This document shows, piece by piece, positions 6,208 through 44,450 of a stretch of DNA of 64,000 bases (the stretch's first letter is position 1; the number at the start of each line of letters is the position of its first letter). The position numbers and the translations under genes are program-made. Under the pieces are notes generated by a model that was not told where the DNA came from, did not search any database, and was given only the letters and a program-made list of their open reading frames with translations. This stretch comes from an uncultured Acidobacteriota bacterium (GTDB lineage: Bacteria > Acidobacteriota > JAQAZP01). The stretch covers positions 322,437 to 386,436 of the forward strand of contig CAWIIB010000009.1 of the NCBI GenBank assembly GCA_963836075.1, in the 5' to 3' direction.

Positions 6208-7647
6208 TCACCGGCCGTCACGGAAATCCTCCTTGCGCAGGCCGTGGCGCCGCATCTTCTCGTTAACCGACCGCGGGTCCATCCCGGCCAGCTTTGCCGT
6301 CTTCCCGATCCGCCCCCCGGTCCGCCGCAGCAGGCCGGCAATGTACCGCGCTTCCAGCCGGCTCACCGCTTCCCGCCGCACCTCGCGAAACGGCCGGTCG
6401 AGCCACTCGTCGGACAGCGGTTCCCCGCCGCCGGCGATCAACCCGTCGAGGTCGGTCCGCTTGCCACCCTCGGCCAATCCGCTGATCGACTGGGGCAGGT
6501 CGGCCAGCCGGATCTCGTCCCCCCGGCAGAGCAGCATGGCCCGCTCGATAATGTTCATCAGTTCGCGGACATTTCCCGGCCAGGCATACTCGCTGAGCGC
6601 CTCCAGCGCGGACGGCTCGATCCGCTCGATACGCCGTCCCACCCGGGGCAGGAAGTATTCGAGATAGCTCTCGGCCAGCACGGGGATGTCCTCCTTCCTC
6701 TCTCGCAGCGGCGGGATGGTCAGCGAGATCACGCTGAGCCGGAAGTAGAGGTCCTGGCGAAATCGCCTGGCCTGCACGTCATCATCCAGGTCGCGGTTGG
6801 TGGCCGCCACCACCCGCACGTCGATCTTCACCGGCTTCTCGCTGCCCACCCGCTGGATCTCGTGGTCCTGGAGCACCCGCAGCAGTTTGACCTGCAGGTG
6901 GACCGGCATCTCCCCCACCTCGTCGAGGAAGACGGTGCCCCGGTGGGCCATCTCGAACAGGCCGCGGCGCGCCCGGGTGGCCCCGGTGAAGGATCCCTCC
7001 TCGTGTCCGAACAGTTCGCTCTCCAGCAGGCTCTCGTGCAGTGCCCCGCAGTTCACCGCCACGAACGGCCCCCGGGTACGAGGCCCTTCGGCGTGTATCG
7101 CCCGGGCCAGCCGCTCCTTGCCGGCGCCGGTCTCGCCGAGGATCAGCAGTGACACGTCGCTCGGCGTCACCCGGCGCACCAGGTCGATGAAGGCGTCCAT
7201 CGCCGGGCTGGCCGAGATGAAATCGTTGAGCGTCGGCTGGGAGAGCGGGTGACGGATCATCAGCCCCTGCACGGTGTTCTCCTGCCGCTTGCTGAGCAGC
7301 GACTGCACCACCAGGGCGTGCTGTCCGGCCGGCAGGCCGGTGTAGAGCACGGCATCGCAACCGGCCGACATCAGCGACACCCGTTGTTCCGGGTCCTCCT
7401 CGTCCACCAGCACCGCCACCAGCGGAGAGTCGGGCAGCTCGCGGAAGAGGCGGATGGCGTCCACCGCCGGCTCGGGCACCAGCCCGATACTGACCATGAT
7501 CAGGTCGGCGTTCTCCCGCGACACCCGCTCCCAGAGCCGCTGCCGGCTGGGGATGCTCTCCACGATCACATCGGGAGCGGCGAGGGCATTGATCAACTCC
7601 TTCTTCAGGATCGGCCGGTCGACCACCAGAATCACCCTGGACAGCAT
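6208..7647 (-). CDS. Sigma-54-dependent transcriptional activator (NtrC-family bacterial enhancer-binding protein; receiver + AAA+ sigma-54 interaction + Fis-type HTH domains).
   Basis: 479 aa. Walker A GETGAGKE; the sigma-54 contact GAFTGA motif is present as GSFTGA (...ELFGHEEGSFTGA...); C-terminal HTH ...TAKLAGMDPRSVNEKMRRHGL. Confidence 0.85.
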   Translation of the reverse strand: MLSRVILVVDRPILKKELINALAAPDVIVESIPSRQRLWERVSRENADLIMVSIGLVPEPAVDAIRLFRELPDSPLVAVLVDEEDPEQRVSLMSAGCDAVLYTGLPAGQHALVVQSLLSKRQENTVQGLMIRHPLSQPTLNDFISASPAMDAFIDLVRRVTPSDVSLLILGETGAGKERLARAIHAEGPRTRGPFVAVNCGALHESLLESELFGHEEGSFTGATRARRGLFEMAHRGTVFLDEVGEMPVHLQVKLLRVLQDHEIQRVGSEKPVKIDVRVVAATNRDLDDDVQARRFRQDLYFRLSVISLTIPPLRERKEDIPVLAESYLEYFLPRVGRRIERIEPSALEALSEYAWPGNVRELMNIIERAMLLCRGDEIRLADLPQSISGLAEGGKRTDLDGLIAGGGEPLSDEWLDRPFREVRREAVSRLEARYIAGLLRRTGGRIGKTAKLAGMDPRSVNEKMRRHGLRKEDFRDGR

Positions 7648-13349: not shown

Positions 13350-14415
13350 ATGCGCATCACCGCAGTTGAGTCATGGCCCCATGCCCTGACCCTCGACGAA
13401 CCGTACACCATCGCCTACGAGACGGTGGACAAGGCGACCAACATATTTCTCCGCCTGGAGACCTCGACGGGGATCATTGGCTACGGCTGCGCAGCCCCCG
13501 ACGAGGCGGTGACCGGGGAGACGGAGGAGGAGGCGCTCACCGCGCTGCGCGAGGTCGCCGCGGCAACGCTGAAAGGCTCCGACCCGCTGCGGCATGCCCG
13601 GCTGATGGAGCTGCTGAAGAAGACGATGAGCGGCCGCCCGTCGGCGCTGGCCGCGGTGGACATGGCGCTGCACGACATTCTCGGCAAGGTCGCCGGCCTG
13701 CCGCTCTGGCGCCTGCTGGGCGGCTACCGTGACCGGATCCGGACCAGCATCACCATCGGCATCCTCCCGGTGGACGAGACGGTGGAGCGGGCGCTGGACT
13801 TCACCGCCCGCGGTTTCCGCTGCCTGAAGATCAAGGGCGGCCTCGACGTGGAGGAGGACGTCGACCCGGGTACTCGAGGTGCGCGAGGCCGTGGGCCCCG
13901 GTATCGAGCTGCGGTTCGACGCCAACCAGGGCTACTCGATGATCGACTCGCTGCACTTCGTCGACATGACCCGCTCGGCCAAGCTGGAGTTGATCGAACA
14001 GCCGACCCCGGTGGGCTCGCCCGACCTGCTGGGGCGGGTGGCCGGCCGGGTGCCGATCCCGGTGATGGCCGACGAGAGCCTGCTCACCCTGCGCGACGCC
14101 TTCCGCATCGCGCGCAACGACCTGGCCGACATGGTCAACATCAAGCTGATGAAGGTCGGCGGGATCGCCGAGGCGCTGCAGATCAATGCCGTGGCCCGCT
14201 CGGCGCGGCTGGAGGTGATGGTGGGCTGCATGGACGAAGCAGCCCTGGCCATCGCCGCCGGCCTGCACTTCGCCCTGGCCCGGCCCAACGTGATCTATGC
14301 CGACCTCGACGGCCACCTCGACCTGTCGGACGACCCGTCTGACGGGGCGGTGATCCTGAGAGACGGTACGCTGTTCCCCACCAACAGGCCGGGGCTGGGC
14401 TTTGACCTACCCTAG
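13350..14415 (+). CDS. Dipeptide epimerase (enolase superfamily, L-Ala-D/L-Glu epimerase-like). One frameshift near 13865.
   Basis: [52 protein letters not shown]...CLKIKGG... then, in the other frame, [19 protein letters not shown]...[13 protein letters not shown]...[10 protein letters not shown] (mandelate racemase/muconate-lactonizing-enzyme fold motifs). Confidence 0.65.
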
Positions 14416-16730
14416 AAGGGGAAGAAGACCGGCACCAGCACCACCATCAGGATCAGCAGGATGATGGTCAGCGGCGTGCCCACCTTGAGGTAGTCCGACA
14501 CCTTGTAGCCTCCTGCGCCCATCACCAGCAGGTTGGCCTTGTGCGAGAAGGGCGTCATGAAGGCCGCGGAGGTGGCCAGCGCCACCGCCATCATCACCGA
14601 CTGCTGGCTGATGCCCGCGTCCAGCGCGGCGGGCAGCACCACCGGAGCCATCAGCACCACCGCCGGGGCGCCGTCCAGGGCCTGGCTCAGGGCGCTGCCC
14701 AGCACCACCATTCCGGCCATGATCCCGTAGGGCCCCAGCGGCCCGGTCAGCGCGGTCACCGAGTCGGAGAGCAGTGCCGCCGCACCGGTGCGTTCGATGG
14801 CGATGCCCAGGGGCAGGATCGCGGCCACCAGGAAAACCGCCTTCCACTCCACCGAGCGGTAGGCCTCCTCCATGGTCACCGCTCCGAAGAGGGCCACCAG
14901 CGTGGCCGCGGTGAACGAGGCCACGTGTATCGGCATGTACCCGGTCACCACCATGGCGATCATCACCACCAGCGCGCCCACGGCCACCGGCGCCTTGCGG
15001 GTCCGGCGCTCCTCCTGGGCCGCCTGGGTCAGCACCACGTAGTCGGGGTGGGATCCCAACGCCCGGATCTGCTGCCAACTGCCCTGGACCAGCAGGGCGT
15101 CGCCCTCCCTGAGCCGCCGGCCGGCCAGCATGGTGTGGATCGCCTGCCCCTGGCTCCAGATGGCCAGCACCTGCAGCCCGGTCTTCTCGCGGAAGTTCAT
15201 TTCGGCCAGGGTCCTGCCCGCCGCCCGCGACCGTGGGGAAAGGGTCACCTCGACGATCCCCACGTCATCGGCCTGAATGCCGGAGCGGGTGATATCCCGC
15301 TCCAGCTGCACGTTGCCCAGGCTCACCAGCCGGCGGATCCGGTCGGTGTCTCCGGCCACCAGCAGCTGGTCCTCGGAGTGAATCCGCTCCAGCGGGGAAA
15401 CGGCCATCATCACCCGGTCCCCGCGGATGATCCCGGCCACGGTCAGGCCGTTCAGCTCGCCCAGGCGGGTCTCCCGCACCGTGGCCCCGGCCAGCGTCGA
15501 GCCGGAGTGCACCCGCAGCAGAAAGAGGTGCGACTTCAGTTCCCGCATGTCCGACTTGTCGAGGTGTGCCACCACCAGGTCGCCGGGGAACTCGGCCCCG
15601 TCCAGCTTCTCCGGCGCACCCACGGCAATGAGTTCGTCCCCCTCGCGGAAGGTCACCGCCGCCAGGTCGCTGTCGATCAACTCGCCATCCCGGCGGATAC
15701 CCACCACCTCCATGCCGTGACGGTCACGCAGGGTGAGGTCGCGCAGGGTCCGGCCGATGAAGCTCGAACCGGGGATAACGGCGGCCAGGATGCTGCGCAC
15801 GTAGCGGAACGCCTGGTCCAGGTCCTGCGGATCGGGCGCCGCCGGTGTCCGAAAGAGGTTTTGCACCTCGTCGTAAGCCCCCTCCACCAGCAGCACGTCG
15901 TTCTCCTCCAGCCGGGTGGCCGCCGTGGGGGTCAGGATCTTCTTGCCGCCCCGTTCGATGCTGACCACCTGCACCCCCAGGGTGTCGGTCAACTGCGCTT
16001 CACCGAGGGTCATTCCATCCAGGCCGGACCCGGGGAGCACGCGGATGGAGAAGAGCGACTCCTCGAGGTGGTAGACGCGGGTCAGGTCCACGGAGCGGGG
16101 GGCCCGGTCCGCGATGCCCTTGTCGGGGAGCAGCCAGCGGCCGATGGTGATCATGTAGAGGATCCCGCAGCCGAGCAGGATCGAGCCCATGGGCAGGAAG
16201 TCGAAGAGGGCGAAGGAGCCGAGGCCGCGGTCCCGCAGCATCTGGTCGGCGAGGATGTTGGGCGGGGTGCCCACCAGGGTCATGGTCCCGCCGAGGATGG
16301 CGCCGAAGGCCAGGGGGATGAAAAGCCGCGAGGGGCTGATCTCGGTCTTGCGGCAGATGCCGGCCACCGCCGGGAGCAGCACCGCCACGGCGGCGATGTT
16401 GTTCATGAAGGCCGAGAGCACGCCGCTGACCAGCATGATGGCGATGATCAGCGGCACCTCGCGGTTGCCGATCAGCTTGTGCACCCGCCCGGCGATGACG
16501 TCGGCCACCCCGGTGTGCAGCAGGGCCGCGCTGACAAAAAAGATCGAGAGCATGGTGATCACCGCCGGCGAGGCGAAACCGGTGAACGCCTCGGCCGGGG
16601 TGACGAAACCGGCCAGGGTGAGGATCACCAGGCCGATGAAGGCGGTCAGTTCCACCGGCAGCTTCTCGGTGAAGAAGAGCGCCGCCATCCCGGTGACCAG
16701 GACAAAAAGAAAGCCGATTTCCAGTGTCAT
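14412..16730 (-). CDS. SLC13/DASS-type anion permease with central tandem TrkA-C (RCK_C) regulatory domains.
   Basis: 772 aa. Permease halves at both ends (GTPPNIL...) and repeated TrkA-C-like segments in the middle (…[11 protein letters not shown]…VVSIERGGK…). Confidence 0.7.
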
Positions 16731-34330: not shown

Positions 34331-34340
34331 GGCTGCGATC

Positions 34341-35765
34341 ATGTCACGAAAGATCACCATCGACCCGATCACGCGCATCGAGGGACACGCCCGCATCACC
34401 CTCCACCTCGACGACGACGGCATCGTCGAGCAGGCGCTGTTCCACGTAACGCAGTTCCGCGGCTTCGAAACGTTCGTCCAGGGGCGGCCGTTCTACGAGA
34501 TGCCCTCGCTGATGGCCCGTACCTGCGGCATCTGCCCGGTGGCCCACCTGATCGCCGGGGCCAAGGCCTGCGACGACCTGTTCGCAGTGCAGATCCCGAA
34601 AGCCGCACGCAATTTGAGGCGGGTGATGAACCTGGCCCAGATCCTCCAGTCGCACGCGCTGAGCTTCTTCCACCTGTCGAGCCCCGACCTGCTGTTCGGC
34701 ATGGACGGCGACCCGGCAAAACGGAACATCCTCGGCATTTTCGAGGAGAACCCGCAACTGGCCAGGGACGGCATTCGACTGCGGCAGATCGGCCAGACGA
34801 TCATCGAGTCGCTCGGCGGCAAACGGATTCATCCGTCGTGGGTGGTGCCCGGCGGCGTGAACGAACCGCTTTCCGAAGAGCACCGCGGCAGCATTCTCGC
34901 CTCGATGCCCGAAGCGATGGAAATCGCCGGCCGGACGCTCGACTGGTTCAAGGGGCGGGTGAAGGACTTCGAAGCCGAGATCCGCACCTTTGGCAATTTC
35001 CCCAGCCTCTACATGGGCCTGGTGGACGGCAAGGGGAACCTCGAGCATTACGACGGCACCCTCCGCATCGTCGATGCCGCCGGCAACATCATCGTCGACC
35101 GGCACGACACCCTGCGCTACGAAGAACTGGTGGGCGAGGCCGTGGAGCCCTGGACCTACATGAAATTCCCCTACTACAAACCACTGGGCTACCCCAAGGG
35201 GATGTACCGCGTGGGGCCGCTGGCCCGGCTCAACGTGGTCAACCGCTGTGGGACAGACCGGGCGGACAAGGAGCTGGAGATTTTCCGCTCGCTGGAAAAG
35301 GGCCCGGTGTCCAGCTCGTTCCACTACCATTGGGCGCGGCTGATCGAGATCCTCTTTTGCATCGAGCGGACACAGCAGTTGCTCGACGATCCGGAAATCC
35401 TCTCCCGTCACGTGCGGGCCGAGGCCAAACCGAACAGCTTCGACGGCATCGGCGTCACCGAGGCCCCGCGGGGCACACTTTTCCACCACTACAAGATCGA
35501 CGAGCAGGGGCTGGTCACCTGGGCCAACTTCATCATCGCCACCGGCAACAACAACCTGGCGATGAACCGCTCGATCCTCCAGGTGGCCAAGAACCATGTG
35601 GACGGCAACAACCTCTCCGAGGGCATGCTCAACCGTGTGGAGGCGGTGATCCGCGCCTACGACCCGTGCCTCAGCTGCTCGACCCATGCCTCGGGTCAAA
35701 TGGCGCTGAAGATCGAGCTGCTGGACCCGGAAGGGACCGTCGTCGACCGGCTGATTCGCGATTAG
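34341..35765 (+). CDS. hoxH: [NiFe] hydrogenase large subunit HoxH.
   Basis: ITRIEGHARI... N-terminal RxCGxC (ARTCGICPVAH) and C-terminal DPCLSCSTH nickel-binding motifs. Confidence 0.85.
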   Translation: MSRKITIDPITRIEGHARITLHLDDDGIVEQALFHVTQFRGFETFVQGRPFYEMPSLMARTCGICPVAHLIAGAKACDDLFAVQIPKAARNLRRVMNLAQILQSHALSFFHLSSPDLLFGMDGDPAKRNILGIFEENPQLARDGIRLRQIGQTIIESLGGKRIHPSWVVPGGVNEPLSEEHRGSILASMPEAMEIAGRTLDWFKGRVKDFEAEIRTFGNFPSLYMGLVDGKGNLEHYDGTLRIVDAAGNIIVDRHDTLRYEELVGEAVEPWTYMKFPYYKPLGYPKGMYRVGPLARLNVVNRCGTDRADKELEIFRSLEKGPVSSSFHYHWARLIEILFCIERTQQLLDDPEILSRHVRAEAKPNSFDGIGVTEAPRGTLFHHYKIDEQGLVTWANFIIATGNNNLAMNRSILQVAKNHVDGNNLSEGMLNRVEAVIRAYDPCLSCSTHASGQMALKIELLDPEGTVVDRLIRD

Positions 35766-35779
35766 GGCGGGCGTGGCCT

Positions 35780-36251
35780 ATGGCACGAATCCTGATCATC
35801 GGAATCGGCAATCCCCTGAGGGAGGACGACGCAGTGGGCCGGCTGGCCGCCCGGCAACTCGCCAGCCGCTATGCCGGCGATGAGCGGGTCACCGCGATCG
35901 ATTGTCACCAGTTGACCCCTGAACTGGCCGAGTCCGTGGCCGGGTCAGACCTGGTGCTCTTTCTCGACGCGGCACGAGCCGGTGAACCCGGCCGGCTGTC
36001 GAAAACGGAAGTGGCGCCTTCCGTCAGTGCCGGCTGCCGCGATCCCCACGACCTCACACCGCAGGATCTCCTCGCCGTCGCCCAAGCGCCTTTTCGGTGG
36101 CGCGCCCCGGGCCCTGCTGCTCACCGTTACCGGCCGGCTGTTCGGTCTCGGCGAGGGGCTCAGCCGGGAGGCGGGGCGGGGAGTGGATCGGCTGGTGGAA
36201 AGCGCTGCCGGCATTATTTCCGGGTTCGGCCATGGCGAAGCCCCCGGGTGA
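35780..36251 (+). CDS. hoxW: Hydrogenase maturation endopeptidase (HoxW/HycI family). 1-nt indel frameshift near 36085.
   Basis: MARILIIGIGNPLREDDAVGRLAA... continues in the other frame as ...LFGGAPRALLLTVTGRLFGLGEGLS... Confidence 0.65.
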
Positions 36252-36256
36252 CCGGC

Positions 36257-37192
36257 CTACCCCTCCGACGCCCGTGCCCCCGGCTTCCCCTCCCTGGCGT
36301 TGTCGTAAAAACGCTGGGTGGGGTAGGCGAAATCAACGTCGTCACACTCCCCGAAAGCGGCGAGGATATCCTCCCAGATCGTTCCGGCGGACGATCTGCG
36401 TTTGCGTGGTTCGCAGAGGTAGCGCAGGGTCAGGGTCACGCCGATATCGGCCACCGAGGTCCAGACGATGGGTGTGAGATATTCAAAGAAGATCAGGTAT
36501 TTCTTTGCCGCCCGGCGGATCTCCCGCTTCGCGTGCTCGGTCTTCACCGCCGTGTGCCGCTCGCCGATCTCCTGGATCAGCTGCTTCGCCTTCTGCCAGT
36601 CGCTCTCGAAGGTCACGGTCACCGCGATCTCGTTCCAGATGATGTTGAACCCCTGGGTAAAATTGGAGAGCGACTGCTTGAAAACCCAGCCGTTGGGGAT
36701 ATGGATGATCCGGCCGGTGCTCTGGTCGGCATCGACCCAGTTGCCGATCTCCAGCAGGGTGAACTGGAACAGCCTGACGTCGATCACGTCGCCGGCGTGG
36801 CCGTTGATGTCCACCCGGTCCCCCACCTCGAACGGCTTGCGCACGACGATGAAAATCCAGCCGGCAAAATTGGCCAGCAGGTCCTGCAGGGCAATGGCCA
36901 GCCCGGCGCTGAAGATGGCGAGATAAGCGGCGAGACCGGTCTGCTGACCCAGCCAGACCCGCCAGAGGGTGATGAACAGGGCAAAGCCAAGGAGATATTT
37001 GACCGTCTTGAGAAAGATGTACTGCCGGGTGATCTCCTGGTGGCCGTGGCGGACCGCGTAGCCGATGACCCAGCGCAGCAGCATGTAGGCCAGGATGGCG
37101 ATGATGGAGAAGACAAACTTCTGCTGCAGCTGGACACTGAGCCCAAGCGCTTCGGAGACGCCAAGCGACAAGTCATCGAGTGTCTGATGCAT
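36257..37192 (-). CDS. Mechanosensitive ion channel, MscS family (small type).
   Basis: …GLAIALQDLLANFAGWIFIVVRKPFEVGDRVDINGHAGDVIDVRLFQFTLLEIGNW... (the MscS TM3/beta-domain signature). Confidence 0.8.
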   Translation of the reverse strand: MHQTLDDLSLGVSEALGLSVQLQQKFVFSIIAILAYMLLRWVIGYAVRHGHQEITRQYIFLKTVKYLLGFALFITLWRVWLGQQTGLAAYLAIFSAGLAIALQDLLANFAGWIFIVVRKPFEVGDRVDINGHAGDVIDVRLFQFTLLEIGNWVDADQSTGRIIHIPNGWVFKQSLSNFTQGFNIIWNEIAVTVTFESDWQKAKQLIQEIGERHTAVKTEHAKREIRRAAKKYLIFFEYLTPIVWTSVADIGVTLTLRYLCEPRKRRSSAGTIWEDILAAFGECDDVDFAYPTQRFYDNAREGKPGARASEG

Positions 37193-37376
37193 TGAACGAG
37201 ACCTCGGTTCACTATAGACAACTTGATGCCCGAAAGACAAGGACCGCCGTCGACGGCAAACGCTGGAGACCGAATGCCGGGCGGATCAAATGGCGGCTAC
37301 CGGCAATGGGAGAGCCGTCTTGTGGGAGGCAGAAAACCAGAGGCAGTGTCACATCGTGATGAGGAAAGGAATCCGT

Positions 37377-39086
37377 TCACTTGGGGAGTTCGATCTCGAA
37401 CGATGTGCCTTTGCCCACCCGGCTGGATACGTGGATCGTGCCCCCCAGCGAGGTGACGATCCCGTGGCTGATGGAAAGCCCCAACCCGGTACCTTTGCCG
37501 ACTTCCTTGGTCGTGAAGAACGGTTGGAAAATTTTCGGGAGGACGTCCGCTTCAATTCCGCGGCCGGTATCGGAAATGATGACGCTGACAGTTTCGCTGT
37601 TCTCATGCGAGGAGATCGTGATGCGCCCGTCCTTGCCGATGGCGTCCCTTGCGTTTCGAAGAAGATTGATGAAAACCTGCTTTATCTTTTCCGCATCCGT
37701 CTCGATCGCGGGCAATTGATCATCCGTCTCGATCCTTATCTCGATGTTTTCCAGGGTGAACTCCTTCTGGATCAGCTCGACGGCGTCCCGCACCACCTCA
37801 TTGATCCGGTGGGTTTCGATCCGGGTTTCGTGATGCCTTGAGAACCCCAGCAGCTTCTGCGTGATGCCCCGGCAGCGGCGGATCTCCTGCTTGATCGACT
37901 CCATCCGCTGCTGAAACTCGTCCTGGTTGAATTCCTGGCCGAAGGCAGGGTCGAGGGTGTCCTCCATCACGCCGATCTCCGAGAACATCACTGCCAGTGG
38001 ATTGTTGATCTCGTGGGCCACGCCGGCGGCCATCTCGCCCATCGTCGAGAGCTTACCCGCCTTGATCAGGTGGTCGATCAGCCTGGCACGGTCCCGTTCG
38101 GCCCTCGCGTAGCGCCTGAGCAGCGTCTGTGTCGAGAGCACCGAGATCACGACGATGACCAGCGCACTCAGGGCAAGGATAACCAGGACCACCCGCGTGG
38201 TCGATCGGACCGGCAGGTTGGCCACGGCCAGGTCCTGCATCACGACCAGCGTCCAGTCGGTGGTCTGCATCCTCGACCAGGCGACCAGGTACGATTCATT
38301 TCCCGACTGGGTTTTTCCCACTCCCCGGCTCTCGGACAATGCCGGAAGGGATACCAGGGGCAAAAAGACATTGTTGCACAACTCCGGCGGCCCGCACTGG
38401 CAAACGCCCTCACTGTTCACAATCAGGGCCCTTGCCCCCTCGATGACCTGCACGTCGTTGACCAGCTGGTTGAAACGGACCGGGTTGATGGTGATGCGCA
38501 GGAAGCGGACGTGTGCGGCGGTGGAAATCCGGTGGGCCACGATGAAGTGTGGTTCGTTACGATACCCGAGGTAGACATCGCTGACAAACAGATCTTTCTC
38601 GGTTGTGGACAGGACGCGAAACCAGTTTTCCTCGCTGTAGTTCCTCCCCTCGAGGGACGGGAACGGCCCGGCGTACCGCGAATGCGTGCCGTCCTCGTCG
38701 AAGAGCCCGATATCCAGAATCGTCTCGTCCATGCTCTGCAACAACCCGAGCAGGTTGATCATGTCCTGGTGGGAGGGGTACGCATCCAGGTCGATGATGC
38801 TTGAGATGCTCCTCAGTGCATTGGTCTTGTTGGTGAGGATCTGATCGATGGCGGTCTGCCGGCCCTTGGCGATGGTTTGCAGCAGGAGCTCCGAACGGGC
38901 CTCTAGGGTGTTGGTGAACTGGTGGCGCAGGTAGAACGCCAGCAGGAAGAGGGGGACCAGGGACACGATGAGCAGCCGGACCAGGACCCGGTTCCGCAGC
39001 CCGTTCAGCGTTTGTGAGTGGGGCGCGAAAATCTCGTCCGGCCTGTCCTTCACCGGATCGGCGGCGGATCGTTGCTGCCTGTCCAT
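37377..39086 (-). CDS. Sensor histidine kinase with a periplasmic Cache-like domain.
   Basis: Two TM helices flank a periplasmic domain of about 250 aa. H-box HEINNPLAVM. The HATPase N, G1 and G2 boxes (LLRNARDA...DTGRGI...GTGLGLSI). Confidence 0.8.
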   Translation of the reverse strand: MDRQQRSAADPVKDRPDEIFAPHSQTLNGLRNRVLVRLLIVSLVPLFLLAFYLRHQFTNTLEARSELLLQTIAKGRQTAIDQILTNKTNALRSISSIIDLDAYPSHQDMINLLGLLQSMDETILDIGLFDEDGTHSRYAGPFPSLEGRNYSEENWFRVLSTTEKDLFVSDVYLGYRNEPHFIVAHRISTAAHVRFLRITINPVRFNQLVNDVQVIEGARALIVNSEGVCQCGPPELCNNVFLPLVSLPALSESRGVGKTQSGNESYLVAWSRMQTTDWTLVVMQDLAVANLPVRSTTRVVLVILALSALVIVVISVLSTQTLLRRYARAERDRARLIDHLIKAGKLSTMGEMAAGVAHEINNPLAVMFSEIGVMEDTLDPAFGQEFNQDEFQQRMESIKQEIRRCRGITQKLLGFSRHHETRIETHRINEVVRDAVELIQKEFTLENIEIRIETDDQLPAIETDAEKIKQVFINLLRNARDAIGKDGRITISSHENSETVSVIISDTGRGIEADVLPKIFQPFFTTKEVGKGTGLGLSISHGIVTSLGGTIHVSSRVGKGTSFEIELPK

Positions 39087-39153
39087 ATGGTCACCTGCTG
39101 GATGATCTTCCCTGTCCAGGGCCCCTGGCCGAGACCGAGACCGGCGCTCCGGC

Positions 39154-39642
39154 TCAGTCGCTCTCCTTGTCCAGCTTTCGCAGTTCCTCGAGCAGCGCCA
39201 GCGGGCTGTACCTGGTGGCCTTGTCCAGCAGTGCCTGCACCCCCGCTGCTTTTTGTTCCTTGCGGGCGATGATGCGCTTGGCGTAGGCCTGCGACAGGAC
39301 GGAGATCAGTTCATCGAGCTCGCACGGCTTTTGCAGGTATTCGTAAGCCCCTTCACGCGTCATTTTTTTGGCCGAATCGAGAGAGCCGTGGCCGGTCAGG
39401 ACCACGACCTCCATGCGGGGATGCTGCTGCTTGATTCGCCGCAACAGTTCCTCGCCGTCCATTCCGGGCATCTTCAGGTCGATGAGCGCCACATCGAATT
39501 TCTGGTTCTGAGTCGCCTCCAGGGCATCTTCCCCCCGGGTGAATGGAAAAACCTCGATGTTCCGGACCTCGAGCCTCCTCGTTGTCGCGTTGAGAAATTT
39601 CTTCTCGTCGTCAACGAACAGCAACCGAATCTTTTCACTCAT
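39154..39642 (-). CDS. Single-domain response regulator (receiver only, with a short C-terminal coiled tail).
   Basis: LLFVDDE...DVALIDLKMPGMDG...VVVLTGHGS. Strong RBS AAGGAAGGAG. Confidence 0.75.
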   Translation of the reverse strand: MSEKIRLLFVDDEKKFLNATTRRLEVRNIEVFPFTRGEDALEATQNQKFDVALIDLKMPGMDGEELLRRIKQQHPRMEVVVLTGHGSLDSAKKMTREGAYEYLQKPCELDELISVLSQAYAKRIIARKEQKAAGVQALLDKATRYSPLALLEELRKLDKESD

Positions 39643-39675
39643 CGCACAACTCCTTCCTTTCAGTTTCCTCACGCT

Positions 39676-41703
39676 TCATACGGCCGGGAACCCCACCCAG
39701 GGCCAGTATACGAGGAAGAGCCAGAACCAGAGCACAGCCATTGAGATGAGAAAAACGGCCGTGCCGTGCCTGGCAAAGTCGCCCAGGGAGATCAACTGCT
39801 TCCCCGTTTCGGGGTCTTTGGCTACCGCGTAAATGATCGCGTTGTTCGGCGTGCCGATGATCAGAATGTGGGCGAAGGACGAGGCGAAGGCGGTGGCAAA
39901 ACCGATCATCCACGGGTGCGTGCCGGAAATCACCGCCATCGGGGTGGTGATCGGACCGATGGCGGAAACCGTCGCGCCGTCGCTCATGAAATTGGTCAGT
40001 ACGCCGGTGAGGATGCTGCAGGCTATGGCCAGCCCCGTGCCCGAGCCCATCGACTCCGGCAGCAGCTCGAGGAAACCGGCGGCGATCCAGAGGCCGGCCC
40101 CGGTGACCGCCAGCCCCTTGCCCATGGCCGTCGCGCCCGCATAGAGGGCGACCACGTCCCAGTGGATGTGGCTGACGTCGCGCCAGCGGGTGATGCGGAG
40201 CATGGACATCAGCACGAGGCCCAGCAAAACAGGCCCGGCCATGCCGAAGGTGCTGGAGAGAAAAACCCAGCCGAGGATCACCAGCACCAGGATGCCGGCC
40301 ATCAGATACTCCTCGAGGAGCATCGGCCCGAGGCGCTTCGATTCGGTTTTGACGATCTCGGCCACGTTCAGATTCTTCACTTTTATCTTCTTCCTGAAAA
40401 CGAGGAAGAAATAGAGGCCCACTGCCAGGGCGGCGACCGGAACAAAGGGCAAGCCGTATTTCATCCATTGACCGTAGGAGGGAGCATTGCCGTAATCCAT
40501 CATGATGCCCAGCATGACCGCGTTTCGCCCGCCGGCGCTTGGCGACCCCGGCCCGCCCAGGTTTCCGATAAAGGTCACGATGAGGATCAGGGTGATGGCC
40601 AGGCTCCGGTCTTCATCGATCCCGGCGGATTTGATCGAAACCGCGTAGACCGCCACCATGATCGGCGCGATGAAGGCGACCAGGGCGTGCTCGGAGACGA
40701 ACGAGGCACTCACCGCCAGCAGCGGGCAAAAGAGGAAAACGAACCGCCGCAGGCTGCTGGACATCCCAAGCAGCAGGACACCGATCCGTTTGTCCAGGCC
40801 CGTTTTGGCGATCCCCACGGACAGCGCCAGCACACCGAAAATGAACAGCACCGAATCCTTGGCAAATGCCTTGGCCACCATCTCGGGAGGCATGATGCGG
40901 AACCAGTACATTACCACGCCGACCAGGATCGCCGTGAATCCGACTGGAATCGCGCCGGTGGCCCAGAAAAACGCGGCGAGGAACAGCAGCGCCACCATGA
41001 CCTTGGCCTTGAATGCCGCAAAGGTCACCGGGTCCCCCCCATCATACCCTCTCATGAAGTCGGTATACTTCCCGTAGTAATCCGAAATCGTTTGTCCCGC
41101 GGCCATCTTCTTGTATTCGGCGTAACCGCTGATCGGGTCAGCAAGATCCCCGCTCTTGACTGTTCCCAGCAGGTCGAGCATCGACCGCGGCGGCGGGAGA
41201 AGGATGATGAGGAAGAATATGAACAACCCGACAAGAATGAACAGCGGGCGGTAATTGCTGACGCCGATCAACCGTGTTTTCAAGCCGGGCTTCTTCTCCG
41301 GGATCTCGTCCTCACGGATCAGCACACCCACGCGGTGCCGCCTGGCAGCTTCGATCTCATGGAGCAGTTCCTCGAACTCCACCGGCTTCTCGAGGTAGGA
41401 ATAGGCGTCGAGCTTTCCGGTGACCGTAGCGGACTGGAAGGACGCATGTCCGGTCAGGATGATGACCTGGCTCGACGGGCTGTATTTCTTGATCGCCTTG
41501 AGGGTCTCTTCGCCGCTCATGCCCGGCATCTTCAAATCGAGAAGAATGACTTCGTACTCATGCTGGCGAACCATGGCGATCGCGTCGTCACCGCGTTCGA
41601 CCTCGTGAACCTTGTACCCCCGTTTTTCGAGGCGGAGTTTCGTGTTTTCCCTGAACTTCCGTTCGTCCTCCACCATCAGAACATCGACATGCTTGTCCGG
41701 CAT
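39676..41703 (-). CDS. Receiver (REC) domain fused N-terminally to a CitMHS/ArsB-NhaD-type anion permease.
   Basis: VLMVEDE...ILLDLKMPGMSG...VIILTGHAS (REC, about 125 aa), followed by 12 or more TM segments typical of the CitMHS/SLC13-like permease fold. Confidence 0.7.
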   Translation of the reverse strand: MPDKHVDVLMVEDERKFRENTKLRLEKRGYKVHEVERGDDAIAMVRQHEYEVILLDLKMPGMSGEETLKAIKKYSPSSQVIILTGHASFQSATVTGKLDAYSYLEKPVEFEELLHEIEAARRHRVGVLIREDEIPEKKPGLKTRLIGVSNYRPLFILVGLFIFFLIILLPPPRSMLDLLGTVKSGDLADPISGYAEYKKMAAGQTISDYYGKYTDFMRGYDGGDPVTFAAFKAKVMVALLFLAAFFWATGAIPVGFTAILVGVVMYWFRIMPPEMVAKAFAKDSVLFIFGVLALSVGIAKTGLDKRIGVLLLGMSSSLRRFVFLFCPLLAVSASFVSEHALVAFIAPIMVAVYAVSIKSAGIDEDRSLAITLILIVTFIGNLGGPGSPSAGGRNAVMLGIMMDYGNAPSYGQWMKYGLPFVPVAALAVGLYFFLVFRKKIKVKNLNVAEIVKTESKRLGPMLLEEYLMAGILVLVILGWVFLSSTFGMAGPVLLGLVLMSMLRITRWRDVSHIHWDVVALYAGATAMGKGLAVTGAGLWIAAGFLELLPESMGSGTGLAIACSILTGVLTNFMSDGATVSAIGPITTPMAVISGTHPWMIGFATAFASSFAHILIIGTPNNAIIYAVAKDPETGKQLISLGDFARHGTAVFLISMAVLWFWLFLVYWPWVGFPAV

Positions 41704-42058
41704 TTAACACTCCCGGGCACCCCTTTGCGGACCCAACCAGAATTATCGACGGGACGGAATCCAACTTTGGGCATTATTCTCGTAAACACCTCTACGATCA
41801 AGGGATTTCGCAGAAGCAGATCAAGTTAAAATTCCGCTGTCCAGGCTGGCCGGCGGGCCTGGAGCGGAAAGCCGTCATTGACTTCATCGAACGCTCTCCG
41901 GTACATTTTCCACCAGCAGACTGATTCCGATCACGCTTGAGGCCATCCGATCAGGCACACTGCCGCAAAGGAACGAGAACTCCGTTGGGGCTCAAATCAC
42001 GAACCTGGAAATCATTGATCCCGGCCGGCCGGGTGACAGTCACCAGAGAGGAGCCGCG

Positions 42059-43108
42059 ATGTTTGTCCTGATCGTTATAGTCGCCGTCACCATCCTCGTC
42101 TCGTCCAGTTGCTCGCTGTTCGAGTCGGTCCTGTACACCACCCGCATGGGCACCCTGGAAGCGTCGAAGAGCGAGGGCCGGCGGCAGCGGCTGGCCGCCT
42201 CCATGCTCGAGATGAAACGCAACATCTCCGGGCCCATCGCCGCCATCCTGATCCTCAACACCATCGCCAACACCGCCGGGGCCACCATGGCCGGCGCCTG
42301 GGCGGACAAGGTGCTCGGCGTGGGGATGGTCCCCCTCTTCTCGATCCTCTTCACCTTTGCCATCCTGTTTTTTGCAGAAATCTTTCCCAAAACTGCGGGG
42401 GCGGTGTACTGGCGCACCCTCTGGCCGGGCATCGTCCGGCCGCTGACCGCCATGCGCTACCTCCTCTCGCCGCTGATCTGGGTCACGGAAAAGGCGACCT
42501 CGCTGATCACCCGCGGCCAGAAGTCACAGCACATCACCGAGAAGGAGATTCTCGCCGTCATCCGCTGGGGCGAAACCGAAGGGGAAATATCGAATCTCGA
42601 GAGCCTCATCGTCCACAACATCATCGGGCTCGAGGACAAACAGGTTGAGGACATCATGACGCCGCGGACGGTGATGTTCAGCCTGCCCGAGACCGCGCTG
42701 GTGGAAGACGTCCGCGAGGAGGCCAGCGAACGGGGGTTCACCCGCATACCGCTATACCGCGACGACCGCGAGCGGATTACCGGCTACGTGATGATCCACG
42801 ATCTCAACTCGCACCAGGCATGCAGCAAGCAAGGGGTGACGCTGGCCGAACTGGCCCGCCCGATGGGCTTTATCGACCAGGGGACCAACTGCCTCAAGCT
42901 CCTGGCCCGCTTCCTCCGCACCCGGCGCCACGTGTCGGTGGTGAAAGACACCTATGGCGGCGTGGCCGGCCTGGTCACCCTCGAGGACCTGCTGGAAACC
43001 ATGCTCGGGACGGAGATTGTGGACGAGCGGGACGAGGTGGCCGACCTGCAGAAACTGGCCCGGCGTAAAATGCGAAGGGGTCCCGCCGAAAAGGACGGAG
43101 GAGGCTGA
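42059..43108 (+). CDS. CNNM/CorC-HlyC family transporter (DUF21 + CBS pair).
   Basis: N-terminal 4-TM DUF21 (…AEIFPKTAG…). CBS pair …VEDIMTPRTVMF… / …VVKDTYGGVAGLVTLEDLLE…. Confidence 0.75.
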   Translation: MFVLIVIVAVTILVSSSCSLFESVLYTTRMGTLEASKSEGRRQRLAASMLEMKRNISGPIAAILILNTIANTAGATMAGAWADKVLGVGMVPLFSILFTFAILFFAEIFPKTAGAVYWRTLWPGIVRPLTAMRYLLSPLIWVTEKATSLITRGQKSQHITEKEILAVIRWGETEGEISNLESLIVHNIIGLEDKQVEDIMTPRTVMFSLPETALVEDVREEASERGFTRIPLYRDDRERITGYVMIHDLNSHQACSKQGVTLAELARPMGFIDQGTNCLKLLARFLRTRRHVSVVKDTYGGVAGLVTLEDLLETMLGTEIVDERDEVADLQKLARRKMRRGPAEKDGGG

Positions 43109-43110
43109 TT

Positions 43111-44352
43111 ATGACCATCTGGCTCTGGGTCGGATTTGTCGTCTTCGTGCTGTTCCTGCTGGCCCTGGACCTGGGGGTGTTCAACCGCAAGGCCCACGTG
43201 GTCTCCGCCGGCGAGGCGCTGGGCTGGACGGCCCTCTGGGTCGCGCTGGCGCTGCTCTTCAACGTCGCGATCTACTACCTCTATGAGAATCACTGGCTCG
43301 GAGTGGGCCTCGAGATTGGCCATTCGCTCGGGGGGCGGCAGGCGGCCCTGCAGTTCTTCACCGGCTACCTCATCGAGAAGTCGCTGAGCCTCGACAACAT
43401 CTTCGTCATCGCGCTCATCTTCACCTACTTCAGTGTGCCCCTGCGGCACCAGCACCGGCTGCTCTTCTGGGGCGTGCTCGGCGCACTGGTCCTTCGCGGG
43501 CTGATGATCGTCGCCGGCGTGGCGCTGATCAGCCGCTTCAGCTGGATGATCTACGTTTTCGGCGGCCTGCTGCTGGTGACCGCGGTGAAGATGCTGGTGG
43601 CCCGCCATGACAACCTGGCAACGGAAAACAACCCGCTGGTCCGGCTGACCCGCCGCTTCTACCCGGTCACCGACGACATCGAGAGCGGGAGGTTTTTCAC
43701 CAGGGTTGACGGGCGCAGGGCCGTTACGCCGCTTTTTCTCGCCCTGATGGTGATCGAGAGCACCGACATCCTCTTCGCCGTGGACTCCATCCCCGCCATC
43801 TTCGCCGTCACCCGGGACCCGTTTATCATTTTCACGTCCAATGTCTTCGCCATCCTCGGGCTGCGCTCGCTCTACTTCGTCCTCGCCGCGGCCCTGGAGC
43901 GGTTCCGCTACCTCAAGATGAGCCTGGCCTTCATCCTCGCCTTCGTGGGCGTGAAAATGATTCTCGCCCACCACCACCCCATTCCGACGATGATCTCGCT
44001 GGCGGTGATCGCCGGGATCCTACTTGTCGGGATCGCCGCATCAATGCTTCACGGCCACCGGGACACGGCGGCCCTGGTCTCGCCCGTGGTCGAAGAAATG
44101 GAGCAGATCCTGCGCTTGACCGTCCGGCGCGCGAAACGCGTGATCATCCTGGTGGTGGGGAGCACGGTGATCCTCCTCGGCGCGGCGCTGCTGGTGCTGC
44201 CCGGCCCGGGCCTGCTGGTGATCTTCTTCGGCATTTCTCTTCTGGCCACCGAGTTTTTCTGGGCCCGGCGGCTCCTGCGCAGGGTGCGCCGGGAGACATC
44301 GAGGCTGGCGAAGGCGTCAAAGCGGACGCTGGGTATGGGGGACGATGGTTGA
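43111..44352 (+). CDS. TerC-family membrane protein fused to a C-terminal PGPGW domain.
   Basis: LSLDNIFVIALIF and DSIPAIFAVT (TerC repeats). C-terminal ...LVLPGPGLLVIFFGISLLATEFFWAR (PGPGW). Confidence 0.7.
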   Translation: MTIWLWVGFVVFVLFLLALDLGVFNRKAHVVSAGEALGWTALWVALALLFNVAIYYLYENHWLGVGLEIGHSLGGRQAALQFFTGYLIEKSLSLDNIFVIALIFTYFSVPLRHQHRLLFWGVLGALVLRGLMIVAGVALISRFSWMIYVFGGLLLVTAVKMLVARHDNLATENNPLVRLTRRFYPVTDDIESGRFFTRVDGRRAVTPLFLALMVIESTDILFAVDSIPAIFAVTRDPFIIFTSNVFAILGLRSLYFVLAAALERFRYLKMSLAFILAFVGVKMILAHHHPIPTMISLAVIAGILLVGIAASMLHGHRDTAALVSPVVEEMEQILRLTVRRAKRVIILVVGSTVILLGAALLVLPGPGLLVIFFGISLLATEFFWARRLLRRVRRETSRLAKASKRTLGMGDDG

Positions 44353-44450
44353 GTCATGTTGCCTCGATCCGGCCGGATAGACTATCCTTTCTTCGTCTCA
44401 TTCCCCTCTAAAAGGAAGAACCACCCCGGGGTCAACGAAGGGCCACCGAC

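What the first reader, a model, noticed from the sequence alone, without database searches (positions are those of the whole stretch)
37377..41703. Permease with an N-terminal phospho-receiver domain, encoded with an orphan receiver and a Cache-domain histidine kinase
The first gene of the operon fuses a complete REC domain (VLMVEDE...D...K pattern) to a CitMHS/ArsB-type anion permease. It is followed by a stand-alone REC protein and a sensor kinase with a periplasmic single-Cache domain. There is no DNA-binding output anywhere in the operon. This implies a phosphorelay whose output is direct post-translational gating of a transporter, with the Cache domain plausibly sensing the transported carboxylate or anion and the orphan REC acting as a phosphate sink. 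Receiver-regulated transporters are rare and poorly characterised.
Basis: inference. Interest (0 to 1): 0.55.

Follow-up and report, generated by a model that had tools for sequence, protein, structure and literature searches.

The report
Phospho-receiver fused to an anion transporter
A bacterial anion transporter carries its own two-component "receiver" switch and always sits beside a matching sensor kinase and a second free receiver. This suggests a widespread, unstudied way of switching a transporter on or off directly by phosphorylation instead of through gene expression.

Summary
Three co-directional genes on the minus strand encode:
- a 675-aa protein with a catalytically complete REC domain fused to a DASS/SLC13-fold permease;
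- a stand-alone REC, really 162 aa;
- a histidine kinase with a periplasmic double-Cache domain.

No DNA-binding regulator lies within about 30 kb.

The fusion is a large conserved family, not an oddity. All 120 closest database homologues have the same architecture and invariant phospho-acceptor residues. A scan of species-representative genomes found 491 relatives. In 81 loci from Myxococcota, Desulfobacterales, Zixibacteria, Ignavibacteriales, Planctomycetota and other phyla, the only conserved neighbours are the downstream REC (72/77) and the Cache kinase (76/81).

The REC-to-first-membrane-helix distance is exactly 48 residues in all 120 homologues. Close relatives carry a USP domain or nothing at that position.

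The permease is an atypical DASS. Both Ser-Asn-Thr hairpin motifs are replaced (Ser-Glu-His and Ser-Asp-Gly), so its substrate is unknown.

Best reading, inferred and not shown: a self-contained phospho-switch acting directly on an elevator-type anion transporter. I found no paper describing the fusion. One UniProt entry calls it "response regulator modulated" symporter, and related gene clusters in sulfate reducers have been interpreted transcriptionally. The claims that Cache senses the substrate and that the free REC is a phosphate sink remain untested.

The parts
41773..41801 (-). sigma-70-like promoter candidate (TTGATC-17-AATAAT), about 70 nt upstream of the REC-DASS start
   Evidence: Consensus scan only; not evidence of function. 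No Rfam element in 36000-43000.
39676..41703 (-). REC-DASS fusion gene (675 aa, stop codon included)
   Evidence: ORF. Pfam REC plus Na_sulph_symp/CitMHS. 100% identical protein P0001 is in public databases, and 120/120 top homologues share the architecture. AF2 mean pLDDT 87, pTM 0.79.
41353..41682 (-). Receiver (REC) domain, residues 8-117; phospho-acceptor Asp56 is codon 41536-41538
   Evidence: Pfam E 2.5e-26. E12/D13, D56, T84, Y103 and K106 are aligned to CheY and conserved across 120 homologues. Nearest solved receiver is NtrC1, including its linker.
41248..41352 (-). Extended alpha5 helix plus linker (residues 118-152) joining REC to TM1
   Evidence: AF2 shows helix 110-130, a loop, and helix 141-146. 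K106 to P153 is exactly 48 residues in 120/120 homologues, and R130, G147, R152 and P153 are invariant.
41170..41247 (-). TM1 (about residues 153-178)
   Evidence: AF2 helix 153-168 and hydropathy. It lies N-terminal to the part that aligns with VcINDY from its residue 24 onward.
41005..41169 (-). Family-specific periplasmic insert between TM1 and TM2 (about residues 179-233)
   Evidence: Has conserved K183, G193, Y194 and Y210 but variable length, 48-62 aa. It is enlarged to about 120 aa in the 615-aa REC-less paralogues.
39679..41004 (-). DASS/SLC13-fold transport core (residues 234-675) with hairpin-tip motifs S337-E338-H339, G383..R393-N394, S574-D575-G576 and G617-T-P-N-N621
   Evidence: Pfam PF00939 at 128 bits. 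Alignments to VcINDY and SLC13A2 place SEH and SDG where those proteins have SNT and SNT/SNV. Motifs are invariant in 120 homologues. Foldseek TM 0.73-0.83 (target-normalised) to NaS1, NaCT and VcINDY.
39154..39642 (-). Stand-alone receiver REC2 (162 aa from ATG 39642; the mechanical ORF starts at GTG 39672) with a conserved C-terminal tail of about 40 aa
   Evidence: Pfam REC E 5.8e-28. AGGAG lies 8 nt before ATG 39642. An ortholog sits directly downstream of the fusion in 72 of 77 loci with enough flank. Tail consensus is SPLxILRxLRELDxE. 39% identical to the fused REC.
37377..39086 (-). Sensor histidine kinase (569 aa): TM, periplasmic dCache_1 (38241-38906), TM, HisKA (37830-38042), HATPase_c (37383-37697)
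   Evidence: Pfam. Best NCBIfam matches are AtoS/ZraS-type kinases. H-box AHEINNPL and the G-boxes are conserved in 87 orthologues. A kinase ortholog lies within 1.5 kb of the fusion in 76/81 loci.

Best explanation
This is a self-contained signalling-and-transport module.

Proposed mechanism (all steps inferred):
1. The membrane kinase detects a still unknown periplasmic ligand with its double-Cache domain and autophosphorylates.
2. It transfers the phosphoryl group to Asp56 of the receiver domain on the cytoplasmic N-terminus of a dimeric, elevator-type DASS-fold anion permease.
3. It also transfers to the paralogous free receiver REC2.
4. Phosphorylation changes how the two receiver heads of the transporter dimer associate, as in NtrC1/DctD-type receivers.
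5. Through a linker of fixed length into TM1, this favours or blocks the movement of the transport domain, switching uptake on or off within seconds and without new gene expression.
6. REC2 tunes this, either by competing for phosphoryl groups or by binding through its conserved tail.

Shown here: the domain content, intact catalytic residues, DASS fold, conservation of the fusion and of the three-gene module, fixed linker length, and absence of a DNA-binding partner in the module.

Inferred only: phosphotransfer, the direction of the effect, the ligand and the transported ion. The ion is probably an inorganic oxyanion, with sulfate the leading candidate in sulfate reducers.
For: 1. The receiver is catalytically complete and under strong constraint. 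D56, T84 and K106 are invariant in 120/120 homologues, D13 in 119, and position 12 is D in 116 and E in 3.
2. The fusion is fixed. All 120 top homologues (54-88% identity) carry REC plus DASS. All 80 genome loci give a single tblastn alignment across residues 1 to about 672.
3. Module conservation across at least 7 phyla. Of all neighbour gene families in 81 loci, only DASS (77 loci), Cache kinase (70) and REC (69) recur. REC2 lies directly downstream in 72/77 loci and a kinase lies within 1.5 kb in 76/81.
4. There is no DNA-binding domain in the module. The RECs next to it in Desulfobacula are REC-only or REC-CBS. The nearest activator in the window is about 30 kb away.
5. The REC-to-TM1 spacing is exactly 48 residues in 120/120 sequences, whereas the adjacent periplasmic insert varies from 48 to 62. 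Alpha5 is extended as in NtrC1.
6. At the same N-terminal position, the nearest 50%-identity clusters carry REC, a USP domain, or nothing. That is the behaviour of a swappable regulatory head. REC-less paralogues in the same loci are still flanked by stand-alone REC and kinase genes.
7. The transport core keeps invariant hairpin-tip motifs, shared with many ordinary DASS proteins of about 470 aa. It is therefore most likely a working transporter, not a mere anchor.
8. REC and REC2 share the alpha1 face (E14, F17 and L25 invariant in both), and both score best against NtrC-type receivers, matching the NtrB-type kinase.
Against: - No experiment and no structural contact data are available. The AF2 output gives no inter-domain contacts and cannot model the dimer.
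- The linker loop 131-140 has pLDDT of only about 65-75, so rigid mechanical coupling is not established.
- A test for locus-specific co-variation of REC and REC2 at presumed kinase-contact positions gave the same small excess as control positions, so it is inconclusive.
- 16 of 81 loci carry an NtrC-type sigma-54 activator nearby, so the kinase may have a transcriptional branch as well.
- CBS-pair proteins are a frequent fourth component that this model does not explain.
- The substrate is unknown.
Confidence: 0.55

Rival explanations
1. Transceptor or flux-sensor model. The permease is primarily a sensor. Its conformational cycle, and so substrate availability or flux, controls how accessible its REC is to the kinase. 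The fused REC then acts as a substrate-dependent phosphate sink or scaffold. The real output is phosphorylated REC2, which acts through its conserved tail on some other target.
For: REC2 is as conserved as the fusion and has a conserved C-terminal tail unlike a plain sink. The kinase, REC and REC2 are always together. From established knowledge, co-sensing between DASS or C4-dicarboxylate carriers and sensor kinases is known (DctA/DcuB with DcuS).
Against: No candidate REC2 target is conserved in 81 loci. Swapping REC for USP at the same position in close relatives fits regulation of the transporter better than signalling from it. The two models are not mutually exclusive.
Confidence: 0.2
2. 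Branched conventional system. The Cache kinase's main output is transcriptional, through an NtrC-type sigma-54 activator encoded elsewhere, as in the published model for DASS clusters of Desulfobacteraceae. The fused REC and REC2 only fine-tune phosphate flow.
For: The kinase is NtrB/AtoS-like and both RECs are NtrC-like. An NtrC-type activator gene occurs in 16/81 loci. PMC11887813 proposes transcriptional control of DASS sulfate transporters by Cache kinases.
Against: 65 of 81 loci, including the window, have no such gene nearby. The only sigma-54 activator in the 64-kb window is about 30 kb away, and Pfam does not detect a receiver in it. No sigma-54 promoter was evident by eye upstream of the operon. 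The receivers adjacent to DASS genes in Desulfobacula have no DNA-binding domain.
Confidence: 0.15
3. The N-terminal REC is a structural or pseudo-receiver domain used for dimerisation, folding or localisation, and it is never phosphorylated. Alternatively, the fusion is a gene-calling or assembly artefact.
For: None specific. Pseudo-receivers do exist in other proteins (established knowledge).
Against: All phospho-chemistry residues are invariant in 120 sequences. The single ORF recurs in more than 80 independent assemblies from many phyla. A cognate-type kinase is adjacent in 76/81 loci.
Confidence: 0.03

Closest known systems
DASS/SLC13 transporters (VcINDY, NaCT, NaDC1/3, NaS1; TC 2.A.47)
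   Same: Same fold and topology. The profile matches 5uld/4f35 over about 420 residues, with Foldseek E 1e-16 to 1e-17 and TM up to 0.83. It passes the Pfam PF00939 threshold.
   Different: Both Ser-Asn-Thr hairpin motifs that bind Na+ and substrate are replaced by Ser-Glu-His and Ser-Asp-Gly, with an added invariant Arg393. It scores below the NCBIfam TIGR00785 cutoff (153 against 198.6 bits). It has a 55-aa periplasmic insert after TM1 and an N-terminal REC. None of the solved or characterised members has a receiver domain.
Yeast Pho90/Pho87 phosphate transporters (SPX domain fused to a DASS-fold core)
   Same: A DASS-fold anion transporter with an N-terminal cytoplasmic regulatory domain. 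Pho90 structures 8r33-8r35 are Foldseek hits at E about 1e-14. That the SPX domain restrains transport is from my own knowledge of the literature.
   Different: The regulatory domain is SPX, which binds inositol pyrophosphate, and not a phosphorylatable receiver. It is eukaryotic and has no dedicated kinase.
SLC13/CitMHS permeases with inserted TrkA_C (RCK_C) domains
   Same: Same transporter superfamily carrying a built-in cytoplasmic regulatory domain. One is encoded in this very window at 16730..14412, with four TrkA_C domains.
   Different: The regulatory domains are ligand-binding and inserted mid-protein. There is no two-component input.
Two-component control of carboxylate carriers (DctB/DctD, DcuS/DcuR, CitA/CitB, CitS/CitT), including co-sensing by DctA/DcuB
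   Same: A periplasmic PDC/Cache-type sensor kinase is functionally tied to an anion carrier. DctD and NtrC1 receivers are the nearest solved relatives of the fused REC, including the helical linker.
   Different: Those systems act through a DNA-binding regulator on transcription (established knowledge). Here the receiver is covalently part of the carrier and the conserved module has no DNA-binding domain.
DASS 'sulfate transporter' gene clusters of Desulfobacteraceae (PMC11887813; group Cii of PMC5840216)
   Same: The Desulfobacula toluolica homologue P0026 (57% identity) lies in such a cluster, with Cache kinases, receivers, a second DASS, and REC-CBS and CBS proteins. Those papers treat these DASS proteins as candidate sulfate importers. 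They report that two cluster members of D. autotrophicum are induced at low sulfate.
   Different: Neither paper mentions a receiver fused to the transporter. The 2025 model assumes WalR-type transcriptional regulators, whereas the receivers I see next to these genes have no DNA-binding domain. The window's organism and many other carriers (Ignavibacteriales, Planctomycetota, Zixibacteria) are not known sulfate reducers.
Single-domain CheY-like receivers and phosphate sinks
   Same: REC2 is a stand-alone receiver with a complete active site, co-encoded with a kinase and a second receiver.
   Different: REC2 has a conserved C-terminal extension of about 40 aa, and its position immediately after the fusion gene is fixed. 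A sink role is untested.

Membership tests
Response-regulator receiver (REC/CheY-like) domain: fused REC | Acidic pocket (CheY D12/D13), phospho-acceptor Asp (D57), Thr/Ser (T87), aromatic switch (Y106) and Lys (K109) | tested here: met
   E12/D13, D56, T84, Y103 and K106 are present. D56, T84 and K106 are invariant in 120/120 homologues.
Response-regulator receiver (REC/CheY-like) domain: fused REC | (beta-alpha)5 fold | tested here: met
   AF2 secondary structure shows E6-11, H15-27, E30-35, H38-47, E52-55, H64-74, E79-84, H89-97, E102-105 and H110-130. Foldseek TM 0.84-0.92 to PmrA and NtrC1 receivers.
Response-regulator receiver (REC/CheY-like) domain: fused REC | Phosphorylated by a cognate histidine kinase | not testable with these tools
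   Only circumstantial evidence: an adjacent NtrB-type kinase in 76/81 loci.
DASS / SLC13 (TC 2.A.47) | Sequence-family membership by curated thresholds | tested here: inconclusive
   Pfam PF00939 scores 128 bits against a cutoff of 27, so it is met. NCBIfam TIGR00785 scores 153 bits against a cutoff of 198.6, so it is not met.
DASS / SLC13 (TC 2.A.47) | Fold with two re-entrant hairpins and scaffold plus transport domains | tested here: met
   Foldseek to NaS1, NaCT, VcINDY and INDY gives probability 1.00, and target-normalised TM up to 0.83.
DASS / SLC13 (TC 2.A.47) | Conserved Ser-Asn-Thr motifs at both hairpin tips (Na+ and substrate site) | tested here: not met
   SNT becomes S337-E338-H339, and SNT/SNV becomes S574-D575-G576, in alignments to VcINDY and SLC13A2. 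These are invariant in the family and shared with a broader clade of about 470-aa proteins.
DASS / SLC13 (TC 2.A.47) | Na+-coupled transport of di/tricarboxylate or sulfate | not testable with these tools
   Substrate and coupling ion are unknown.
   CitMHS PF03600 scores 92 bits, below PF00939 at 128 bits. ArsB appears in Foldseek only at E 1e-9, against 1e-17 for SLC13 members. All belong to the same superfamily.
Cache-domain sensor kinase | Single versus double Cache | tested here: met
   dCache_1 (double Cache) is matched over profile positions 3-239 of 240 at 64 bits against a cutoff of 45. The 'single Cache' label is not supported.
Cache-domain sensor kinase | Amino-acid-binding dCache motif (Arg two residues before the conserved Trp) | tested here: not met
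   Aligned to the chemoreceptor 6iop, the 'RPWY' segment reads 'EENWF'. The family consensus is ExWF. The ligand is unknown.
Classical two-component system with a transcription-factor output | Response regulator with a DNA-binding (or RNA-binding) output domain encoded with the kinase | tested here: not met
   None is present in the operon. None is among the conserved neighbours in 81 loci, and an NtrC-type gene occurs in only 16 loci.
Phosphate-sink single-domain receiver (REC2) | Stand-alone REC with no output function that drains phosphate from the kinase or the main regulator | not testable with these tools
   REC2 is stand-alone with a full active site, but it has a conserved C-terminal tail. 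Sink behaviour needs phosphotransfer kinetics.

The most novel reading that the evidence does not exclude
This would be the first known case of a receiver domain directly gating a secondary, elevator-type transporter. It would be a complete two-component pathway whose only output is the activity of the carrier it is fused to, present in hundreds of anaerobic and sediment bacterial species. In sulfate reducers it could be the unexplained fast switch that adjusts sulfate-uptake capacity or affinity to ambient sulfate. REC2 and CBS/USP proteins would integrate the cell's energy state.
Probability: 0.4. Interest if true: 0.75.

Novelty: new variant of a known kind. Interest (0 to 1): 0.6.

Why it matters
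Two-component systems are almost always discussed as transcription switches, and the known non-transcriptional outputs are mostly enzymes or motor-binding proteins. A receiver covalently attached to a DASS-fold carrier would add direct, reversible phospho-control of membrane transport to that list. The evidence here is its conservation with its kinase in many phyla.

It would also give structural biologists a natural handle to lock an elevator transporter in defined states, using BeF3- or D-to-E variants.

For sulfur-cycle microbiology, the published model of DASS sulfate-transporter clusters in Desulfobacteraceae may need revising from transcriptional to post-translational control. Cultivated, proteomically studied strains such as Desulfobacula toluolica carry the module, so the idea is directly testable.

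Tried and rejected
1. REC2 tail as a copy of the REC-to-TM1 linker. BLASTP of the window pair extends to 'RYSPLALL' against 'NYRPLFIL'. A profile-profile comparison of the tail and linker regions alone finds nothing (hhalign probability 0.2). Rejected as unsupported.
2. Locus-specific co-variation of the fused REC and REC2 at presumed kinase-contact positions. Within-locus identity exceeds between-locus identity by about 2 points, at contact and control positions alike. Uninformative.
3. Ligand of the Cache domain. The only PDB sequence hit is a weak match to a double-Cache chemoreceptor (E 0.003). No ligand can be inferred.
4. Substrate from context. No metabolic gene is conserved next to the module in 81 loci. 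This argues weakly for an inorganic ion but identifies nothing. NCBIfam gives only the generic DASS subfamily for relatives.
5. Riboswitch or other RNA element around the operon: none in Rfam at E <= 1.
6. Literature on the fusion. Six full-text searches found no paper describing it. The Galperin response-regulator census papers are not in the held library, so prior mention there cannot be excluded.
7. Equating P0026 with the proteomically detected TOL2_19410. Gene-order counting against locus tags in the supplement of PMC11887813 suggests TOL2_C19410 is more likely the neighbouring 615-aa REC-less paralogue. Left unresolved.
8. My first clustering labelled the 188-aa genes between the kinase and the fusion as REC. 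They are CBS-pair proteins, linked by single linkage through REC-CBS fusions.

Full report
**What is in the window**

Three co-directional ORFs lie on the minus strand: 41703..39676 (675 aa), 39672..39154 and 39086..37377 (569 aa).

Pfam finds the following:
- First protein: a receiver domain at residues 8-117 (E 2.5e-26). This is followed by Na_sulph_symp at 232-671 (E 5.8e-37), overlapped by a weaker CitMHS match.
- Second protein: a receiver domain only.
- Third protein: dCache_1 (61-282, full-length match to the double-Cache model), HisKA and HATPase_c.

NCBIfam places the kinase nearest AtoS/ZraS-type (NtrB-like) kinases and both receivers nearest NtrC-type receivers.

The intergenic gaps are short. 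An AGGAG lies 8 nt before ATG 39642, so the second gene most likely starts there. That gives 162 aa, the modal length of its orthologues.

A sigma-70-like promoter candidate lies about 70 nt upstream of the first gene. No Rfam element is present.

**Surroundings**
- Downstream on the same strand is an MscS-like gene.
- Divergently upstream are CNNM-CBS, TerC and SLC12-like transporter genes.
- Further away are a Hox-type hydrogenase with HypF and a second SLC13/CitMHS permease with four TrkA_C domains.
- The only sigma-54 activator in the window is at 7647..6208.
- No DNA-binding regulator lies within about 30 kb of the module.

**Is the receiver real?**

Aligned with CheY, the fused domain has E12/D13, D56, T84, Y103 and K106. 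In the 120 closest homologues, D56, T84 and K106 are invariant, D13 is present in 119, and position 12 is Asp in 116.

**Is the fusion real and conserved?**

- A search of 5.8 billion protein clusters returned 1,268 hits at E <= 1e-10 among the 8,000 candidates scored. All 120 listed (54-100% identity, about 99% coverage) carry REC plus DASS.
- One of them, from Desulfobacula toluolica, is named 'Response regulator modulated sodium/sulfate symporter' in UniRef.
- A scan of one genome per species (GTDB) found 491 relatives.
- The best 80 loci come from Myxococcota (the closest named group, 63-68% identity; an unclassified MAG reaches 83%), Desulfobacterales/Thermodesulfobacteriota, Zixibacteria/GN15, Ignavibacteriales, Planctomycetota, Acidobacteriota, Fibrobacteraceae and others.
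- In every locus the protein aligns as one uninterrupted ORF.

**Neighbourhood**

I clustered all ORFs of 81 non-redundant loci. Only three families recur: the DASS protein (77 loci), the Cache kinase (70) and small receivers (69). The next family, an NtrC-type sigma-54 activator, occurs in 16 loci.

- An ortholog of the 162-aa receiver lies directly downstream of the fusion in 72 of the 77 loci with enough flank.
- A kinase ortholog lies within 1.5 kb in 76 of 81 loci. It is usually immediately upstream; in the window and its closest relative it is downstream.
- In the FCB-group loci, a CBS-pair protein sits between the kinase and the fusion in at least 21 loci.
- In Desulfobacterales, the cluster is expanded with a second kinase, a second receiver, a REC-less 615-aa DASS paralogue, REC-CBS, CBS and USP genes.
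- REC-less DASS paralogues in these loci are almost always flanked by stand-alone receivers and kinases too.

The second refutation criterion, REC and permease as unrelated separate genes, also fails. The split forms are further evidence of a functional link.

**The transporter part**

- Profile and pairwise searches of the PDB give SLC13A2, NaCT, NaS1 and VcINDY as nearest solved relatives (E 1e-22 to 1e-29).
- An AlphaFold2 model built on the 120-sequence alignment is confident (mean pLDDT 87, pTM 0.79).
- Foldseek returns NaS1, NaCT, VcINDY, Drosophila INDY, NaDC3 and yeast Pho90, with ArsB more distant.
- It is therefore a DASS/SLC13-fold carrier, more precisely than 'CitMHS/ArsB-type'.

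It is atypical in several respects:
- The two Ser-Asn-Thr hairpin-tip motifs that bind Na+ and substrate in VcINDY and SLC13 align to S337-E338-H339 and S574-D575-G576. There is also an invariant GGPGSPxAGGRN (R393) and GTPNN.
- It scores below NCBIfam's DASS cutoff.
- These motifs are shared with a broad clade of ordinary DASS proteins of about 470 aa, which do pass that cutoff. They define a subfamily, not the fusion.
- The substrate and coupling ion cannot be read from sequence.
- No catabolic genes are conserved next to the module, and ion-homeostasis genes surround it in the window. Both point weakly to an inorganic ion.

In sulfate reducers, the literature treats this DASS group as candidate sulfate importers, and two cluster members of Desulfobacterium autotrophicum are reported as induced at low sulfate (PMC5840216). 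Many carriers of the module are not known sulfate reducers.

**How the receiver is attached**

- The model shows a canonical (beta-alpha)5 receiver whose alpha5 is extended (residues 110-130). The nearest solved receiver, Aquifex NtrC1, aligns through its linker.
- A loop follows, then a short helix (141-146), then TM1 (153-168).
- The distance from K106 to P153 is exactly 48 residues in all 120 homologues. The periplasmic insert right after TM1 varies from 48 to 62 residues.
- The VcINDY-alignable core starts after this insert. TM1 plus the insert is therefore a family-specific N-terminal addition.
- The receiver is on the cytoplasmic side, consistent with the cytoplasmic N-terminus of DASS proteins (established knowledge).
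- A search of 1.84 billion representatives with the transporter part alone shows that the nearest 50%-identity clusters differ at this N-terminal position. Five have REC, one has a USP domain, and others have only about 25 residues. This is the pattern expected of an exchangeable regulatory head.

**Mechanism proposed**

The kinase senses a periplasmic ligand and phosphorylates Asp56 of the transporter's receiver and the paralogous REC2. Phosphorylation re-arranges the two receiver heads beneath the constitutive DASS dimer, which favours or blocks the elevator movement of the transport domain. REC2 (39% identical to the fused receiver) competes for phosphate or binds through its tail.

The anatomy and conservation are shown. 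Phosphotransfer, the sign of the effect, the ligand and the substrate are inferred.

Alternatives, given in the rival list, are a flux-sensing 'transceptor' with REC2 as the true output, and a parallel transcriptional branch through an unlinked NtrC-type activator.

The Cache domain lacks the Arg of the amino-acid-binding motif (ExWF instead of RxWY). Nothing supports or refutes the idea that it senses the transported ion.

**Comparison with what is known**

- I found no paper describing a receiver fused to a DASS carrier. The response-regulator census papers were not available to me.
- PMC11887813 describes DASS 'sulfate transporter' clusters with Cache kinases, receivers and CBS proteins in Desulfobacteraceae. 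It proposes a PhoRB-like transcriptional circuit with 'WalR-type' regulators. Its text and supplements, as held, do not mention a fused receiver.
- In the Desulfobacula cluster, the receivers I examined are REC-only or REC-CBS. That model may therefore need revision.
- The nearest architectural analogues are yeast Pho90/Pho87 (SPX domain on a DASS-fold phosphate carrier) and SLC13 permeases with TrkA_C domains.
- The nearest functional analogues are the DctB/DctD- and DcuS/DcuR-type systems, which act transcriptionally.

**Verdict**

The feature is a member of a large, conserved, database-annotated but experimentally unstudied family. I rate it a new variant of a known kind: a two-component system with a secondary transporter as its output domain. 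Interest is 0.6.

Noticed in passing
window 14412-16730 (-): A second permease of the same superfamily: 772 aa, CitMHS/Na_sulph_symp with four TrkA_C (RCK_C) domains inserted. The genome therefore carries two differently regulated SLC13-type carriers within 25 kb.
   Followed up: no
window 36257-37240 (-), 42059-46664 (+), 55590-56444 (-): The module sits among ion- and osmo-homeostasis genes: MscS-like channels, a CNNM-CBS transporter, a TerC-PGPGW fusion and an SLC12-like cation-chloride cotransporter homologue. The MscS-like gene lies 137 nt downstream of the kinase on the same strand. This neighbour is not conserved in the closest relative, which has a transposase there instead.
   Followed up: partly
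L030 2441-3028, L045 2647-3213 and about 20 other FCB-group loci; L002 16036-16938: A CBS-pair protein of about 188 aa is inserted between the Cache kinase and the REC-DASS gene in Zixibacteria and Ignavibacteriales loci. Desulfobacterales clusters have REC-CBS fusions plus free CBS and USP proteins. This is a recurrent fourth component that may link transport to nucleotide or energy status.
   Followed up: partly
P0129 (692 aa; representative library): A close relative of the transporter core (48% identity) carries a universal stress protein (USP) domain at the N-terminus, exactly where this family has REC.
   Followed up: partly
L002 5911-7956 (Desulfobacula toluolica) and similar 681-aa kinases in L010, L012, L016, L042 and L074: The kinase upstream of REC-DASS in Desulfobacterales itself starts with a receiver domain placed before its first membrane helix: REC, TM, dCache, TM, HisKA, HATPase. 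This is the same REC-before-TM1 arrangement as in the transporter.
   Followed up: no
L002 13354-15201; P0159, P0146: The 615-aa REC-less DASS paralogues have a periplasmic domain of about 120 aa, with no Pfam match, between TM1 and TM2. The fusion family has a 55-aa insert at the same place.
   Followed up: partly
window 6208-7647 (-): A sigma-54 activator (AAA+ and HTH_8) whose N-terminal region of about 140 aa aligns to NtrC receivers by tblastn. Pfam does not recognise it as REC, and the sequence reads 'VVDRP' where the acidic pair should be, so it is possibly a degenerate receiver.
   Followed up: no
window 31000-35765 (+), 28349-30700 (-): Genes for a Hox-type bidirectional [NiFe] hydrogenase (HoxF-, HoxU-, HoxY- and HoxH-like) and the maturation factor HypF lie just downstream of the module.
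   Followed up: no
PMC11887813 versus L002: The published regulatory model for DASS clusters calls the associated response regulators 'WalR type' (DNA-binding). The receivers encoded next to the DASS genes in the Desulfobacula cluster show only REC, or REC plus CBS, in Pfam.
   Followed up: partly
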